Origin: Chiloscyllium plagiosum
Taxonomy: Eukaryota
Assembly (NCBI RefSeq): GCF_004010195.1
Contig: NC_057718.1
Coordinates: 89,047,458 to 89,067,457, forward strand
Reading direction: 5' to 3'
Length of the DNA stretch: 20,000 bases
The translations under genes were made by a program, and so were the position numbers. Shown here one piece after another: positions 3,670 to 20,000 of the stretch (positions within the stretch are counted from its first letter, which is position 1; each line of letters begins with the position of its first letter). A model generated the notes under the pieces. That model worked only from the letters and a program-made list of their open reading frames with translations, ran no database searches and was not told where the DNA came from.

Positions 3670-4488
3670 AATCTAAACTTCAATCTAAATCTAGATTTAG
3701 GTTTTATTGTTACGTGTACTCAAATACGAGGTACAACAGTACAGTTGAAAGTGTACAATGCCACCACACACAAAGTACCCCGGAATAAAATCTTAGCCTA
3801 CACTAATAGGAAAATAAAGAAATAAATGAATCAGTTCAGCACTACAGTCTTAGCATCAAAGTAGAAAAATCAATAAATTAAAAATGTTAAACAATCATGA
3901 GGGACATGGATGGGGTAAATAGACAAGGTCTTTTCCCTGGGGTGGGAGTGTCCAGAATTAGAGGGCATAGGTTTAGGGTGGGAGGGAAAGATTTAAAAGG
4001 GACCTAAGGGGCAACTTTTTCGCACAGAGGGTGGTACGTGTATGGAATGAGCTGCCAGAAGAAGTGCTGGAGGCTGGTACAATTACAACATTTAAAAGGC
4101 ATCTGGATGGGTATATGAATAGGAAGGGTTTGGAGGGATATGGGCCAAGTGCTGGCAAATGGGACTAGATTGGATTGGGATATCTGGTCGGCATGGACGG
4201 GTCAGACCGAAGGGTCTCTTTCTGTGCTGTATGTCTCTATGACTCTATTACAGTGCTTTCTTAAGCCATGGACCTCCAGACACTCCAAGCTGGGCTTTCT
4301 CCAGGAGGGTTCACTCTCCCCCAACACTGCCCATGCTCCATCGCTGCCTTTACCTCACACACCCTCTGAAAGTTAAGTAAGAAACACAAAAAAACTAAAA
4401 AGAGAGCTGAGAAAAGAAGGAAAAAAGCAGAAAGAAGAAGGGAAAGCGGGCCGAATGGATGAGATTTGGGCTTGAGACCCTGGATGCT
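3670..4488 (-). mobile_element. Non-coding retroposon with LINE-type 3' tail and (TCTAAA)-like terminal repeats; contains a CR1 insertion
   Basis: Flanked by TSD GCATTTA (3663-3669 and 4489-4495). The minus-strand tail gagtacacgtaacaataaaacctaaatctagatttagattg is shared with 4812-5058. Pyrimidine-rich 5' region; no ORF. Confidence 0.6.
3893..4248 (+). mobile_element. Well-preserved CR1 (HER1-like) 3' fragment
   Basis: Reads IMRDMDGVNRQGLFPGVGVSRIRGHRFRVGGERFKRDLRGNFFAQRVVRVWNELPEEVLEAGTITTFKRHLDGYMNRKG; tail ...tctctatgactctat. Confidence 0.92.
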
Positions 4489-8300: not shown

Positions 8301-8903
8301 ATAAGCTGGACTCAGTCCCTCAAGTGTGCAATAAAATTAATAAATATTTCCTCCTTGTGGTGTTCTGGCAGTCAATGGTTTTCTAATGAGAAGAATTAGG
8401 CTCTTTTGTACAGTATCCTCAATGCTAACACCAGGCAATCTCTTATATTTGATTGTGACATGAATCTGTAGTCATTGGTTTGGCTCCCATAGAGTCATAT
8501 GAACCCTCACTTCCTCAATCTGTTGACCTGAGTGGATTACTTCAGTTGCCCATTGTATTTGTTTGACTGGTGAAGTACACTTTCTCAGACTGTCCAAACC
8601 CCAAATCTGCTCACTCCACACCATCTCTGCCTCTGGCATTGACTGTTCTGTTTTAGAAAACAAAGGTTTGAACACTTGCACCAGTCCCGTGAAGTTCCTG
8701 TCTTCCTCTACTTTGACAATGTTTGTCAGAGAAATTAGCCCAATACGTTAGAGATCACAAAGCACAGTTCAAAGTGAAATTGACAAATGGTTTATTAGCA
8801 CGACGATATCGCGGAAGAGAAATTGACTAAGCTGAAAGAGCACAATAGTAGCCGTGTATTCTCTTCCCAGAGCTGAGGAAGAAGCCAGGTTTTATAATAA
8901 TCC

Positions 8904-9120
8904 GTTCGTACCAAGTGCCAGGTTGACCTCCGGAGGGGGGAGGCACAGGTGCCAGTCGGCCGGTGGACAGTCTTTTGGGATCGTGATTTCTGATGAAGGG
9001 CTTTTGCCCGAAACGTCGATTTTCCTGCTCCCCATATACTGCCTGACCTGCTGTGCTTTTCCAGCACCACTCTAATCTAGACTCTGGTTTCCAGCATCTG
9101 CAGTCCTTGTTTTTACCACC
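8904..9120 (+). mobile_element. Non-autonomous PLE-derived hammerhead element with 86 nt of extra 5' sequence
   Basis: Perfect 13-bp TSD TTTATAATAATCC (8891-8903 and 9121-9133); body ...gcctgacctgctgtgcttttccagcaccac...ccagcatctgcagtcc. Confidence 0.9.
8985..9022 (+). ncRNA. Minimal hammerhead ribozyme motif, catalytic core intact
   Basis: CTGATGA(8990-8996)-A-GGGC-TTTT-GCCC-GAAA(9010-9013)-CGTC; predicted cleavage after C9017; loop-less palindromic helix III; helix I only ~2 bp. Confidence 0.8.
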
Positions 9121-9262
9121 TTTATAATAATCCTGTACAATAGGGCTGATTCAAATTGGGGGGAAAATACAATGTATCTGGAAATGGAGAAATCTAATTA
9201 CAATGATGCTAATCGGAAAACAGTCATCGGATGAATGTCCTGATTCTCGATACAATGCAACA

Positions 9263-11170: not shown

Positions 11171-12083
11171 CAGCAGGTAAACGGGCTGACGGGTAAGTGA
11201 AATTCAATCTGAATAAATGTGAGGTGATGCACTTGGGCAGGACAAACAATGGAAAGGGAATATGTGATGGACCCTGGGGAGCACAGAGGAGCAGAGTGAC
11301 TTTGACGTGCCTTAAGGTATCCGGGCAGATGAATAAAATGATTAAGGCGACATATGGGTTACTTGCATTTATTAGTTGAAGCACAGGGTTAAAGAATAGG
11401 TGGGTTATGCAGGTCATTAATTCTGATTTCTCTCCACAGATGCTGTCAGACCTGCTGAGCTTTTCCAGCAATTTCTGTTTTGTTTCTGATTGACAGCATC
11501 CGCAGTTCTTTCGGGGGTTATGCTGGAACCATATAAGGTATTGATTAGGCCACAGCTAGATTATTGTGAGCAGTTCTGTGATCCACATTATAGGAAGGAT
11601 GTGCTAACACTGGAGAGGGTGCAAAGGAGATTTACCAGGACGTTGCCTGGGCTGGAGAGTTACGAACAGAGATATTCAGACTGGGGTCGTTAAGCTTCGA
11701 GCAGAGGAAATTGAGAAGGGACATGGTTGAGATGTACAAAGTTGTGAGGAATGTGGTCAGGGTAGGCAGGTAGAAACGTTTCCCCTAGACAGAGGGATCA
11801 ATAAACAGGGTACATAGATTTAAGGAACAGGACAGAAAGTGCAGTGAAGATGTGAGGAAAAATCTTTTCACCAAGACGTTGGAGAGAATTTGGAACTCAG
11901 TGCCTGAAAGGGTGGTAAAGGTAGAACATCTTGGAAGAATTAAGAAGTATTTAGATTTGCACCTGTGATGCAAAAACATACAAGGCTATGGGCCAGGTGC
12001 TGGGAAAAATGAGATTGGAATGGTAAGGATTGGACCCGACGGGCCAAAGGGTGGTTTCTCTGTGCTGCAGATCTCTATGTCAT
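11171..12083 (+). mobile_element. CR1 3' fragment (RT C-terminus + tail)
   Basis: KFNLNKCEVMHLGRTN; YKVLIRPQLDYCEQFCDPHYRKDVLTLERVQRRFTRTLPGL; tail ...ctgtgctgcagatctctatg. Confidence 0.92.
11414..11513 (+). mobile_element. PLE pLTR 3' fragment (hammerhead truncated away)
   Basis: ctctccacagatgctgtcagacctgctgagcttttccagcaatttctg; TSD GGGTTATGC at 11402-11410 and 11515-11523. Confidence 0.8.
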
Positions 12084-13235: not shown

Positions 13236-13981
13236 CTGATTACTTCCGTTGCCACTTGTCTGTCTGTTCTCTCACAAGTTCTCTCATAATTCATCACTGT
13301 CCTTTTCAGTCTTGAGTATCTCCAACAATTTGGTGCAATCTTCAAATTTAGAAATTGTGCTATTGATTCCAAAGACTAAATCATTAATAGAACCCATGAA
13401 CTGAACTGATCCTAGCACTGATCTTGTAGAACACAACTTACCATTTTCTACCAATTAACAACTCCCCTTTATTTCCACTTTCTGCTCTCTGGTCTGAAGC
13501 TAGCTAGCAGTCCATTCTGCTGTCTGTCCTCTCACACAGCATTCTCTGATCCTTATTTCTTATTCTATTATAGTGCATCTTATCAAAGAACTTCTGAAAA
13601 TTCTGAAAAATTACTTCCACAGCATTATCATTATTGACACTCTTTGTCACCCTCCCAAAAGTTTTAATCAGATTGTCCAAGCAAGATTTTTCATTTTGAA
13701 ATTTGTGCTGACTACTTTGTTATTATTTTTCTTGTTTCTATGTTCCCCTAATCTCTCCTTCAGTCTTGATTTCATTATTTCCCTGTCACTGACCAGTTTA
13801 TATTCTGTTCTCCTTATCAAATATAGGAATTCCAGTCTTCTGCAACTGTAACAAATGATTGCATATCGGTCGTCATGGTTCTGGTATTTCTTCTATAGGT
13901 TTGTTGCAAATATAAGGGCTTTATCTTTGAAGTTTAGTTTTGTCAATATATCCTTTTTAAGGAACTTAATTGCACTGTCTA

Positions 13982-14357
13982 GTCATAGAGTCTTAAAGCA
14001 TGGAATCAGACCCTTTCGTCCAACTTGTCCATGCTGACTAAAGTTCCCAAACTAATCCCATTTACCACTACATCTACCACTTCCTCTGGTAGTTTGTTCC
14101 ACATAGGCACCATCCTCTGTGTGAAAAGGTTGCCCCTCAGTACTCTTTCTCCTCTCACCTTGAAATTACGCACTCTAGTTTTGAACTCCCCAACCCTAGG
14201 GAAAAGACCTTTGGTGTTCACCTTATCTATGCCCCTCATGATTTTATAAAGCTCTATAAGGTCTCCCCTCAGCCCCGACGCTCCCAGGGACAGAAGTCTC
14301 AGCTTACCCTACCTCTTCTTATAAGTGAAGCACTTCAGTCCTGGTAATATCTTTGTC
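13982..14357 (-). mobile_element. CR1 3' fragment
   Basis: ORF 14006..14239 MRGIDKVNTKGLFPRVGEFKTRVRNFKVRGERVLRGNLFTQRMVPMWNKLPEEVVD; gtcatagagtc tail. Confidence 0.9.
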
Positions 14358-14412
14358 TCATTCACTGTCATGTCTACCTGTTCTACTTCCCTGAATATTG
14401 AACTGAATAATT

Positions 14413-14516
14413 GTATTCTGAAGAAGGGTCACTGGACCCAAAATGTTAACAGCTTTCTCTCTACAGATGCTGCCAGACCTGCAGAATTTTCCCAACAATT
14501 TCTGTTTTTGTTTCTA
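14413..14516 (+). mobile_element. PLE pLTR fragment with decayed hammerhead
   Basis: CTGAAGA(14418-14424)-A-GGGTC-ACTG-GACCC-aAAA-tGTT; both core lesions are at former CpG sites; TSD AATAATT at 14406-14412 and 14517-14523. Confidence 0.8.
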
Positions 14517-15771: not shown

Positions 15772-16277
15772 TACCCATTCAGCGTCCATCACTTGGGGAT
15801 CAGTTGTAACACCAGCTTAATTTGTTCTTCCTGCACCCTAAATGTCTGAAATGTTTTCCTTTTTTTGTATTACATTACATTGCTTATGCTAATAAAATTC
15901 CTCATTTTATTTTCACAAGTTCCATTCTCAGCCCCTCACATCAGCTTTTCTCCAATCTATTAGCCTTTTCTTCATATTAATATCTTATACTATCCTCATC
16001 TTTACATGTATTCGTAAATTGCCCCTCTTACCCAGAAGTTCCCTTATCTTTACCTCTTTTATCAGTTCTGGTTTATTCCATGTTACTCGATCCAGTAATG
16101 AATCTTCCCCTTGTTGGGCTTTTTGCATATTGGAAAGAGGTCCTGCACATATTGTAGTAACTCTATTCCCTTATCCCCCTTACCTGCCCCTTCTCCTAAT
16201 ATTGACCTTTAGAGTCTTAAGCTGAAAATGTGTTGCTGGAAAAGCACAGCAGGTCAGGCAGCATCCAGGGAACAGGA

Positions 16278-16314
16278 GAATCGACGTTTCGGGCATAAGC
16301 CCTTCTTCAGGAAT
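16278..16314 (-). ncRNA. Minimal hammerhead motif, intact core
   Basis: Minus strand attc-CTGAAGA-A-GGGC-TTAT-GCCC-GAAA-CGTC-gatt; boxes at 16304-16310 and 16287-16290. Confidence 0.8.
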
Positions 16315-16315
16315 G

Positions 16316-16351
16316 ATTCCTGAAGAAGGGCTTATGCCGAAACGTCGATTC
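16316..16351 (+). ncRNA. Minimal hammerhead motif, intact core, helix II shortened by one C
   Basis: attc-CTGAAGA(16320-16326)-AG-GGC-TTAT-GCC-GAAA(16339-16342)-CGTC-gatt. Confidence 0.75.
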
Positions 16352-16489
16352 TCCTGTTCCCTGGATGCTGCCTGACCTGCTGCGCTTTTCCAGCAACACA
16401 TTTTCAGCTCTGATCTCCAGCATCTGCAGACCTCACTTTCTCCTTTAGAGTCTTAATACAAGCTCAAGCCAGACCTCCAGATTACTGTT

Positions 16490-16708
16490 TAGTAAATTTT
16501 CACCCAGAGGATGATAGAAGTCAGGAACACACTGCCTGAGAAGCAGGTTCTGTCACAATGTTTTTGAAGCAACTGGATGAGCATTTAACATTCCAAGGTG
16601 TGGTAGATTATAGATCAAGTGCAGACAATGCTTTGGTGTTTGTTGGTTGGCATGGACAAGGCAGGCTGAAGAGCCTGTTTCTGTGCTGTATGGTTCTATG
16701 ACTGTATG
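16490..16708 (+). mobile_element. CR1 3' fragment
   Basis: ttttcacccagaggatgatagaagtcaggaacacactgcctgag...ggctgaagagcctgtttctgtgctgtatggttctatgact. Confidence 0.8.
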
Positions 16709-17442
16709 CCTAGCATTTATATGACTGTAAGGCTAGAGAGCAACACGGTCTGTGCTGTGCAGGTTCCAACCTTCCAGTAGATTCTGAGCATATGGTTACT
16801 AAGGTCACAGTTAAATCACAGCATACCTCAGAGGCTTATCTATATAATTATCAAACCTCTATCTCTGCACTTTTGTATCCAATTAACATCCTCCATGATT
16901 ATTATGCCATTCCTTAATTTATGTCCTTCGCTCTTCCTCCAGCTCTCTTCCATTGTTAGCTCATCTGTAGACTACACCTATTGGTATGATTGATTCTTTA
17001 TTGTCTCTTACTCCTATTCATTGACTCTATTTTGTTGTACTGTCAACGACAGCATTTTTTTTTCTACTATTATTATGTCAACCCTAATATCGATAATTCC
17101 TACACCAGGGCGGTCTCTCCCTGTGCCACAGTGAAAGCTGAGGACACCAGCCACCCAATATGTTTGTGGCTCGGTCCACAGATGGGTCAAAGTGATGGTC
17201 ACCTTTTCCATGCTAAACAGGATAGACTCTTGAGTTAAAAGAGTGAAACTTGAGGTAGAAGAGTTTAGTTGTTGTCCTGCTACCTCTGGAGTGGCAAAGT
17301 TTACCGATTGCATGGATTTCTCAGTGAGTCACAGATTTTCTGAGTTGGTTTTCCATTGGAACTGGTTTCAGACATTGAAAGAGAGTAGAGATTCCAGTTT
17401 CCTTCCTGTGATCCGCCCCGGTGCTAAGTCCTGACTCTGTTC

Positions 17443-17722
17443 AGAGTCATACAGATGCACAGCATGGAAAAAGACCCTTCGGTCCAACCCCTCCATGCTG
17501 ACCAGATATCCCAACCAAATCTAGTCCCACCTGCCAGCACCCGGCCCATATCCCTCCAAACCCTTCCTATTCATATACCCATCCAGATGGCTTTTAAAAG
17601 TTGCAATTGTACCAGCCTCCACCACTTCCTCTGGCAGCTCATTCCATACACGTACCACCCTCTGTGTGGAAAATGTTGCCCTGTAGGTCTCTTTTATATC
17701 TTTCCCCTCTCACCCTAAACCA
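17443..17722 (-). mobile_element. Well-preserved CR1 3' fragment, same subfamily as 3893-4248
   Basis: Near-identical reverse complement, e.g. cccatatccctccaaacccttcctattcatatacccatccagatg. Confidence 0.92.
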
Positions 17723-17855
17723 CATCATTCCAGATGAAGGAATTGTGCCCAATACGTCAACTTTCCTACTCCTCGGATGCTGCCTGACTTGCTGTGCTAT
17801 TTCAGCACCACACTTTTCGACTCTGACTCTCCAGCATTTGCAGTGCTCACTTTCT
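17723..17855 (+). mobile_element. PLE pLTR fragment with inactivated hammerhead
   Basis: cattc-CAGATGA-aggaattgtgccc-AATA-CGTC (17731-17758), then cctcggatgctgcctgacttgctgtgc...ccagcatttgcagtgctcactttct. Confidence 0.85.
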
Positions 17856-18194: not shown

Positions 18195-18268
18195 TCAAGA
18201 GTAGAGTGGTGCTGGAAAAGCACAGCAGGTCAGGCAGCATCCGAGGAGCAGGAGAATCGACGTTTCGG
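18195..18268 (-). mobile_element. PLE pLTR fragment truncated inside the hammerhead
   Basis: gtgctggaaaagcacagcaggtcaggcagcatccgaggagcaggagaatcgacgtttcgg; only the GAAACGTC half remains. Confidence 0.85.
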
Positions 18269-19474: not shown

Positions 19475-19560
19475 TTTTTTGATGAAGGGCCTTTGCCCAA
19501 AACGTCGATTTTCCTGCTCCTCGGATGCTGCCTGACTTGCTGCAGCACCACACTCTCAAT
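19475..19560 (+). mobile_element. PLE pLTR fragment with decayed hammerhead
   Basis: tTGATGA-A-GGGC-CTTT-GCCC-aAAA-CGTC-gatt (19479-19506), followed by the shared body. Confidence 0.85.
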
Positions 19561-19596
19561 CCTAAACCTCTTACCCTCTAGTTCTAGACTCCCCCA

Positions 19597-20000
19597 TCCA
19601 TGCGGGACACCCGCACCAATCAACCACACCGTCCTGTGGCCCAATATTTCAACTCCCCCTCCCACTCTGCCAAGGACATGGAGGTCCTGGGCCTCCTTCA
19701 CCATCGCTCCCTCACCACTAGACACCTGGAGGAAGAACGCCTCATCTTCCGCCTCGGAACACTTCAACCCCAGGGCATCAATGTGGACTTCAACAGTTTC
19801 CTCATTTCCCCTTCCCCCACCTCACCCTAGTTTTAAACTTCCAGCTCAGCACTGTCCCCATGACTTGTCCGGACTTGTCCTACCTGCCTATCTCCTTTTC
19901 CACTTATCCACTCCACCCTCTCCTCCCTAACCTATCACCTTCATCCCCTCCTCCGCTCACCCATTGTACTCTAAGCTACTTTCTCCCCCCCCCCCCCCCC
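19597..20000 (+). mobile_element. Neptune-type Penelope element 3' fragment: GIY-YIG C-terminus + 3'UTR, running off the window
   Basis: ORF 19600..19830 RDTRTNQPHRPVAQYFNSPSHSAKDMEVLGLL...RHLEEERLIFRLGTLQPQGINVDF matches the PVA.HFN...H / LIF.LGTL.P.G.N.DF end of PLE endonucleases. Confidence 0.9.

What the first reader, a model, noticed from the sequence alone, without database searches (positions are those of the whole stretch)
16206..16456. Young near-perfect palindrome with a hammerhead on each strand
Seen: 94/93-bp arms, 1-nt spacer (G16315), only two differences, intact CpGs and a perfect 13-15 bp TSD, so this is a single recent insertion. The fold-back centre lies 4 nt upstream of both CTGAAGA boxes. 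Established: inverted pLTR duplication at the 5' end is known for Penelope insertions. Inference: transcription from either direction produces one sense ribozyme preceded by its exact antisense, giving a ~93-bp hairpin that would lock the ribozyme and be a Dicer/ADAR substrate able to silence the family; the DNA could extrude a cruciform. The fold-back position may record the mechanism of second-strand priming.
Basis: partly seen in the sequence, partly recalled or inferred. Interest (0 to 1): 0.7.

Follow-up and report, generated by a model that had tools for sequence, protein, structure and literature searches.

The report
Head-to-head Penelope retroelement stub, shark
This is a real mirror-image insertion of two short end-pieces of a very common shark jumping gene, laid down in a pattern already published for this class, so it is ordinary.

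Summary
In detail: 94/93-bp arms (16221-16314, 16316-16408), two differences, a minimal hammerhead on each strand and a 15-bp duplication. A related species has the empty site with one copy of the 15-mer. Another individual of the same species shows both outer junctions, each only 18-24 letters deep. So it is a true insertion, not an artefact. The 33-bp one-sided extension (16409-16441) is the published Penelope 'tail'. Inverted copy, tail, duplication and opposite-strand hammerheads are all described (PMC3846280, PMC8557442, PMC4209133). Corrections: G16315 is templated parent sequence, not a spacer; centres vary among copies, though 16 of 19 displayed junctions have one arm ending near the hammerhead core; the right hammerhead has lost a stem-II base; no RNA read touched the unique flanks (2% of one run). 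Most likely origin: two cDNAs primed from the two strands of one staggered cut, at two start sites, joined head to head (about 0.55; fold-back about 0.25). A silencing role for this copy is unsupported. The scan has reported this kind of stub many times elsewhere in the same genome.

The parts
16206..16220 (+). Left copy of the 15-bp target-site duplication; its last base (A16220) also pairs with T16409, a 1-nt microhomology at the left junction
   Evidence: Exact repeat; single copy at the empty site in organism B, contig of 583 nt joining 16205 to 16442
16221..16316 (-). Left arm: tail-less, 5'-truncated pLTR copy, sense on the minus strand; matches the parent to 6 nt upstream of the CUGA box, which includes G16315 and A16316
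   Evidence: loose ends behind 16316 in 4 of 4 runs; numbering
16279..16314 (-). Minimal type I hammerhead motif of the left arm: core boxes, extra A before a 4-bp stem II, no loop 3, weak helix I (3 pairs and one U-U)
   Evidence: features compared with PMC4209133
16316..16408 (+). Right arm: 5'-truncated pLTR copy starting 4 nt upstream of the CUGA box; carries both differences relative to the other copies that cover those sites
16316..16350 (+). Minimal hammerhead motif of the right arm, with one stem-II C missing (3-bp stem); predicted cut after 16346
   Evidence: 77 of 122 family RNA reads laid here carry the extra C
16409..16441 (+). 33-bp Penelope 'tail', present on this side only; the family end is fixed 2-3 bases further on (16443/16444), overlapping the duplication
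   Evidence: 206-640 contigs per listed row end at 16443 or 16444 in the DNA runs; 30-40-bp tail in PMC8557442 and PMC11167929
16442..16456 (+). Right copy of the 15-bp target-site duplication

Best explanation
It is a dead-on-arrival insertion of the end (pLTR) of an endonuclease-bearing Penelope-like element of a shark. SHOWN: it inserted at this site, duplicated 15 bp, and consists of two head-to-head 5'-truncated copies, one with the 33-bp tail. INFERRED (about 0.55 for this step alone): the GIY-YIG endonuclease cut both strands 15 nt apart, leaving two inward-pointing 3' ends. Each primed reverse transcription on uncleaved element RNA, one at the tail end (2-3 nt microhomology) and one 33 nt further in (1 nt). 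Both cDNAs stopped just past the hammerhead core, and their 3' ends were joined through one shared base. The two hammerheads are passengers with no function here. If the locus were transcribed, the hairpin would be an ADAR or Dicer substrate like thousands of similar stubs, but no transcription was seen.
For: Empty site with one 15-mer in organism B: 256 and 175 letters on the two sides. Both outer junctions in another individual, X3 (contigs 8 and 14). Same layout published: inverted pLTR, 31-bp tail on one copy, 8-10-bp duplication (PMC3846280; PMC8557442). In vitro, an anole Penelope protein cuts and extends both strands, starts at two internal sites that bound the tail, and uses uncleaved RNA (PMC11167929). 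Both arms keep sequence upstream of the predicted cut, so the template was uncleaved. The tail-less arm reaches further upstream (-6) than the tail-bearing arm (-4): a fold-back copy cannot hold bases its template lacks, so fold-back needs an untemplated base that matches the parent by luck (1 in 4; inference). Five other stretches of the window match this family well (4 copies besides the two arms), and a Penelope-type GIY-YIG fragment lies at 19600-19916.
Against: No continuous link from this pLTR family to an RT/GIY-YIG reading frame was obtained; no genome is held, and the nearby fragment is separated from the 19476 copy by about 40 other bases. The X3 junction contigs enter the element by only 24 and 18 letters, below the tool's 31-letter bar for bridging; X5 showed no junction contig and a hole at 16463-16489. 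No displayed contig crossed this copy's centre with fewer than 6 differences. The argument for two primers rests on one base. Many family joints have 2-3 shared letters, which fold-back also predicts. At least one other copy has the same centre (X5 contig 20), which a palindromic master copy would also give.
Confidence: 0.8

Rival explanations
1. Same element, but the mirror arm arose by fold-back (self-priming): one cDNA folded onto itself and was copied, or a self-primed antisense RNA was the template, as proposed by Arkhipova et al. 2013.
For: PMC3846280 reads palindromic junctions this way. 7 of the 12 displayed skip joints have 1-3 shared letters in at least one run, such as a looping 3' end would use. 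Both arms share subfamily variants (16233, 16268, 16272 and their mirrors), as one template would give.
Against: Here the tail-less arm holds parent bases (-5, -6) that the tail-bearing arm lacks; a 1-nt loop cannot close (inference). Extension from both cut strands was seen in vitro. Shared variants also follow from two RNAs of one source copy.
Confidence: 0.25
2. A non-autonomous palindromic mini-element: a hairpin master copy is transcribed and re-inserted whole, so the centre is inherited.
For: X5 contig 20 (16284-16391, 8 differences, 1 gap, depth 24.6 against about 8 for single copy) crosses the same centre with 31 and 76 letters; X3 contig 10 and X5 contig 19 cross it more briefly; some joints have depths of tens of copies.
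Against: 833 joints listed, all 19 distinct displayed skip joints different. A hairpin of about -200 kcal/mol is a poor template (inference). A stop hot spot near the hammerhead core explains recurrence.
Confidence: 0.1
3. One reading: this copy is a transcribed hairpin that locks the ribozyme and silences the family.
For: The hairpin is predicted on both strands and removes stem II. Family RNA exists on both strands: mean depth 740 and 349 in the tail bin. Precedents: PMC3681739, PMC5625713.
Against: Zero RNA depth on the unique flanks (about 2% of one run). Editing-type strand skew at only 4 of 8 displayed A>G/T>C sites, and non-editing changes were as skewed. The lone motif is not predicted to fold helix I. 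PMC3681739 says such siRNAs did not silence Penelope efficiently.
Confidence: 0.04
4. Assembly or sequencing fold-back artefact.
For: No displayed contig spans this copy's own centre.
Against: The arms differ at two sites; duplication and tail flank it; the empty site exists in organism B; both outer junctions, in opposite orientation, appear in another individual.
Confidence: 0.02

Closest known systems
Inverted-pLTR insertions of EN+ Penelope-like elements (Arkhipova et al. 2013, PMC3846280; Craig et al. 2021, PMC8557442)
   Same: Head-to-head 5'-truncated copy at the 5' end, 30-40-bp tail on one side, target duplication, palindromic junction.
   Different: Here nothing but about 95 and 126 bp of pLTR is present, with no ORF; the duplication is 15 bp against 8-10 bp in the rotifer examples; the arms are almost equal.
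Minimal hammerheads of metazoan PLEs (Cervera and De la Pena 2014, PMC4209133)
   Same: Core boxes, extra base before stem II, G10.1-C11.1 pair, no helix III loop; pairs on opposite strands were noted in Schistosoma.
   Different: Their opposite-strand pairs were 100-700 bp apart; these cores are 9 bp apart. Stem II is 4 bp (3 in the right arm) and helix I has a U-U mismatch.
PAc, the anole Poseidon element studied in vitro (Frangieh et al. 2024, PMC11167929)
   Same: Two start sites bounding the tail, both strands cut and extended, uncleaved RNA as template, AT-rich target (10 of 15 bases here).
   Different: The paper's main text does not explain how inverted ends are joined. PAc's ORF starts in stem II, whereas frames starting in this motif stop within about 30 codons. 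The nearby ORF fragment's relative looks Neptune-like (untested).
L1 twin priming (recalled; no paper on it read here)
   Same: Both cut strands prime cDNA and the two cDNAs join by microhomology.
   Different: In L1 the two cDNAs copy different parts of one RNA, giving an inversion without duplication; here both copy the same part, giving a palindrome.
Non-LTR retrozymes (bioRxiv 10.64898/2026.07.22.740005)
   Same: Non-coding, PLE-derived, type I hammerhead.
   Different: Retrozymes are direct tandem repeats; this is inverted.

Membership tests
EN+ Penelope-like element insertion | pLTR carrying a hammerhead motif | tested here: met
   3 matches against 0.04 expected
EN+ Penelope-like element insertion | Inverted 5'-truncated copy adjacent at the 5' end | tested here: met
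EN+ Penelope-like element insertion | 30-40-bp tail on one end only | tested here: met
   33 bp, 16409-16441; fixed family end
EN+ Penelope-like element insertion | Target-site duplication, shown by an empty site | tested here: met
   Organism B contig joins 16205 to 16442
EN+ Penelope-like element insertion | pLTR belongs to an element encoding RT plus C-terminal GIY-YIG | tested here: inconclusive
   GIY-YIG-type fragment at 19600-19916 hits P0001 but is not continuous with this pLTR; no genome held; viral scans empty
Neptune clade | Zn-finger-like linker between RT and EN, and RT phylogeny | not tested
   P0001 shows a Cys/His cluster before the GIY-YIG region; no tree was built and P0001 is not linked to this pLTR
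Minimal PLE hammerhead | Core boxes, extra base between positions 9 and 10.1, G10.1-C11.1, palindromic 15.2-16.2 | tested here: met
   Left arm; the right arm has a shortened stem II
Minimal PLE hammerhead | Helix I of 4-5 bp | tested here: inconclusive
   3 pairs and one U-U; predicted probability under 0.001 in the lone arm
Minimal PLE hammerhead | Self-cleavage (as dimer or with protein) | not testable with these tools
   No pile-up of read ends in the RNA run (table 6)
Non-LTR retrozyme | Direct tandem units, each with a hammerhead | tested here: not met
   Units are inverted; definition
microRNA precursor families (Rfam) | Score at or above the gathering threshold | tested here: not met
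   7 of 7 matches at the hairpin are below threshold, best 40.6 against 68 bits

The most novel reading that the evidence does not exclude
Shark genomes hold a very large fossil record of Penelope insertion intermediates showing that both strands of the cut prime cDNA at the two start sites, and that one cDNA usually stops in a narrow zone (-6 to +8) at the 5' side of the hammerhead core. That zone would mark the template RNA's 5' end or a protein-bound ribozyme fold that halts the RT, giving the non-cleaving motif a role in setting insertion length.
Probability: 0.25. Interest if true: 0.5.

Novelty: new member of a known kind. Interest (0 to 1): 0.15.

Why it matters
This single copy matters little: it is one of very many such stubs. 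Its value is as a clean example with a proven empty site. How Penelope-like elements make their inverted ends is still described as open (PMC8557442, PMC11167929), and a family this abundant makes the two-primer and fold-back models countable from junctions alone.

Tried and rejected
No whole genome is held, so copies could not be collected with both ends; family statements rest on one laying of contigs and reads, of which only the top rows were shown. A family motif found 0 matches in viral contigs and 1 in metagenome contigs, which was a chance match with no other family sequence (L001). P0001 found no relative in viral contigs (0 of 25 candidates). Rfam gave no hammerhead family match, only sub-threshold miRNA-type hairpin hits and one weak scaRNA hit (8 matches). 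Pfam gave nothing significant for 4 of 4 window frames. No RNA holder of the locus was listed; this is no evidence either way. A-to-I editing: the RNA run had 21 A>G and 14 T>C places against 10-13 and 10-14 in the DNA runs; strand skew fitted editing at 4 of 8 displayed sites, including the stem-II loop A (16296/16334), but other change types were equally skewed, and 91 rows were not shown: inconclusive. Dating: 2 differences in 94 bp at the epaulette-shark rate (PMC10587355) gives about 15 million generations (1.8-55 million). I do not trust this, since the differences may be RT errors or template differences, arms can be homogenised, and the species is not that one. Earlier-findings search by sequence was empty. 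Literature searches for shark + Penelope + palindrome (4 papers) and Penelope + twin priming (3 papers) showed no paper devoted to either; the library lacks most subscription journals.

Full report
WHAT IS THERE. The insert spans 16221-16441 between two exact copies of a 15-mer (16206-16220, 16442-16456). The arms are 94 and 93 bp and differ by one missing C in the right arm's stem II and one T/C site. A 33-bp stretch follows the right arm only. The 15-mer occurs twice in the window, with a chance of about 7e-7 allowing 400 placements. A minimal-hammerhead pattern matches each strand and one other copy: 3 matches against 0.04 expected. Four other copies of the same repeat lie at 8986-9107, 17727-17855, 18206-18268 and 19480-19543, with two weaker relatives at 11439 and 14466. 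The copy at 18206 is on the minus strand; none of the four has a mirror arm beside it in the repeat listings.

IS IT REAL. No genome is held, so I laid 4 of 24 listed runs on 15950-16750 at 90% likeness. In X14 (organism B) one 583-nt contig of depth 30 covers 15950-16205 (256 letters, 14 differences) and continues directly into 16442-16616 (175 letters, 8 differences). This is the empty site with one copy of the 15-mer, at about 5% divergence. In X3 (organism A, another sample than the best holder) one contig runs from the left flank 24 letters into the left arm, and another from 18 letters of the tail into the right flank; the flanks differ from the window by about 2%. These overlaps are below the tool's 31-letter bar, but short entry into a high-copy repeat is what such contigs give, and the letters are those of the insert and not of the empty site. 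X5 showed no junction contig and no depth at 16463-16489, so it says nothing. No displayed contig crossed this copy's centre cleanly (277,310 pieces not shown). An artefact is very unlikely.

WHAT IT IS. 83,665, 72,219 and 124,865 contigs were laid from the three DNA runs, nearly all on the element, so the family is huge. Hundreds of contigs stop at 16443/16444: the tail end is fixed. Loose ends behind 16316 agree in 4 of 4 runs, showing that the parent continues upstream and that G16315 and A16316 are parent bases of the left arm; the 17727 copy confirms those bases. So the left arm reaches -6 and the right arm starts at -4 (C of CUGA = +1), sharing one base. A frame at 19588-19827 hit one protein, P0001 (Chiloscyllium punctatum label, E 6e-22), which has a GIY-YIG match just under Pfam's cut-off (21.7 against 22.6 bits). 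This places Penelope-type coding sequence in the window and points to a bamboo-shark-like host, but does not link it to this pLTR.

THE PATTERN IS PUBLISHED. PMC3846280 (11 passages read) describes an inverted pLTR with a 31-bp tail on one copy, 8-10-bp duplications and palindromic junctions, and proposes self-priming. PMC8557442 (12 of 15 passages) calls the inverted 5'-truncated copy and the 30-40-bp tail typical. PMC4209133 (parts 1-2 of 4: abstract, results, discussion) defines the minimal hammerhead, notes pairs on opposite strands 100-700 bp apart, and found single motifs inactive. PMC11167929 (parts 1-2 of 4: main text) shows both strands cut and extended, two start sites bounding the tail, and uncleaved RNA as the substrate. 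The retrozyme preprint 10.64898/2026.07.22.740005 (part 1 of 5 and 6 passages) defines retrozymes as direct tandems. I opened no supplements; junction figures there may bear on the mechanism.

HOW IT FORMED. Shown: the insertion, the duplication, two arms, one tail, 1-nt overlap at the centre, 1 nt and 2-3 nt of microhomology at the outer ends. Inferred: a 15-nt staggered cut gave two inward 3' ends; each primed a cDNA, one at the tail end and one 33 nt inside; both ran through the predicted cut site (+28), so the RNA was uncleaved; they were joined head to head. Fold-back must start from the tail-bearing cDNA, yet the other arm holds parent bases that this cDNA lacks, so it needs a lucky untemplated base (1 in 4). 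That is modest support from one base. I put two primers at about 0.55, fold-back at 0.25 and a hairpin master copy at 0.1.

IS THE CENTRE FIXED. No. Table 5 lists 833 joints and shows 15; table 5c lists 602 and shows 12. After dropping 3 opposite-strand rows, 2 tail-to-arm rows and 3 duplicates, 19 distinct centre joints remain. All differ. In 16 of 19, one arm ends between -6 and +8 and the other between +34 and +102. This clustering is a lead only: the rows were chosen by depth, my reference stops at -6, near-symmetric centres are not scored as joints, and counting was incomplete for X3 and X5. X5 contig 20 shows another copy with the same centre. One tail-to-arm row (16439 to 16220) and two contigs starting at 16220/16221 suggest that the tail-less end recurs too.

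DOES IT DO ANYTHING. Either strand folds into one long hairpin (-194 and -202 kcal/mol) that removes stem II. But helix I is not predicted even in the lone arm (under 0.001), and the right motif is damaged. In the RNA run (poly(A) single-cell, about 2% read) 2,406 reads were laid, none on the unique flanks; family reads came from both strands and showed no pile-up of ends. That library under-samples introns, so this is weak. Editing was inconclusive. siRNAs matching Penelope inverted repeats are reported in Drosophila and did not silence efficiently (PMC3681739, 5 passages). Penelope is the heavily edited LINE-class repeat in lizard, and a palindromic repeat is the most edited in frog (PMC5625713, 6 passages). 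A family-level dsRNA effect in sharks is plausible but neither new in kind nor shown here. Single-strand DNA hairpin energies are -122 and -124 kcal/mol; that is not a test of cruciform extrusion.

AGE. The insert postdates the split from organism B (or is polymorphic there) and appears shared with a haplotype 2% away. With the low shark rate in PMC10587355 (5 passages) this is unlikely to be very recent, but I give no date.

EARLIER NOTES. The scan holds 105 notes fitting these words in this genome (8 shown) and 2. They reach the same class verdict. They gave me the PMC3846280 lead and the idea that the mirror half is built at each insertion; they are not independent support.

VERDICT. Real, well-supported, ordinary: a new member of a known kind. 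Interest 0.15.

Noticed in passing
window 8891-9133: A family copy (8986-9107) with a 13-bp duplication (8891, 9121) that also encloses about 82 bp (8904-8985) unlike the pLTR and unmatched elsewhere in the window: captured DNA, a template switch, or another subfamily's upstream sequence.
   Followed up: partly
window 19476-20000: A family copy with an 8-bp deletion sits after a CA-rich run; about 40 bases later begins a 5'-truncated Penelope-type GIY-YIG end with its 3' region, running off the window.
   Followed up: partly
window 14408-14515 and 11402-11523: Two older relatives. The first has a decayed hammerhead with a 5-bp stem II; the second has a 9-bp flanking repeat.
   Followed up: no
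window 16443-16446 (family loose ends): Consensus letters after the fixed tail end begin AG or CAG in the DNA runs, so the parent's tail end resembles a splice acceptor after a pyrimidine run. Agreement is only about 0.33.
   Followed up: no
window 16280 (mirror 16349/16350): The variant that makes helix I a perfect 4 bp is a minority in the family: 8-10% of laid depth in organism A, 20% in organism B.
   Followed up: no
window 16296 and 16334: The stem-II loop A reads G about twice as often on one read orientation in RNA (23% vs 12%; 26% vs 11%), in the direction editing would give if the library is stranded as usual; other change types are as skewed.
   Followed up: partly
window 3970-4246 and 17443-17721; also 13981-14347, 16497-16707: Another repeat family in opposite orientations, 89% alike over 279 bp and 13 kb apart; I recall this sequence type as CR1-like LINE ends, and Pfam gave no hit for the one frame tried.
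   Followed up: no
window 15950-16220, run X3: A sample labelled as the same organism differs from the window by about 2% in both flanks, high for one species.
   Followed up: no
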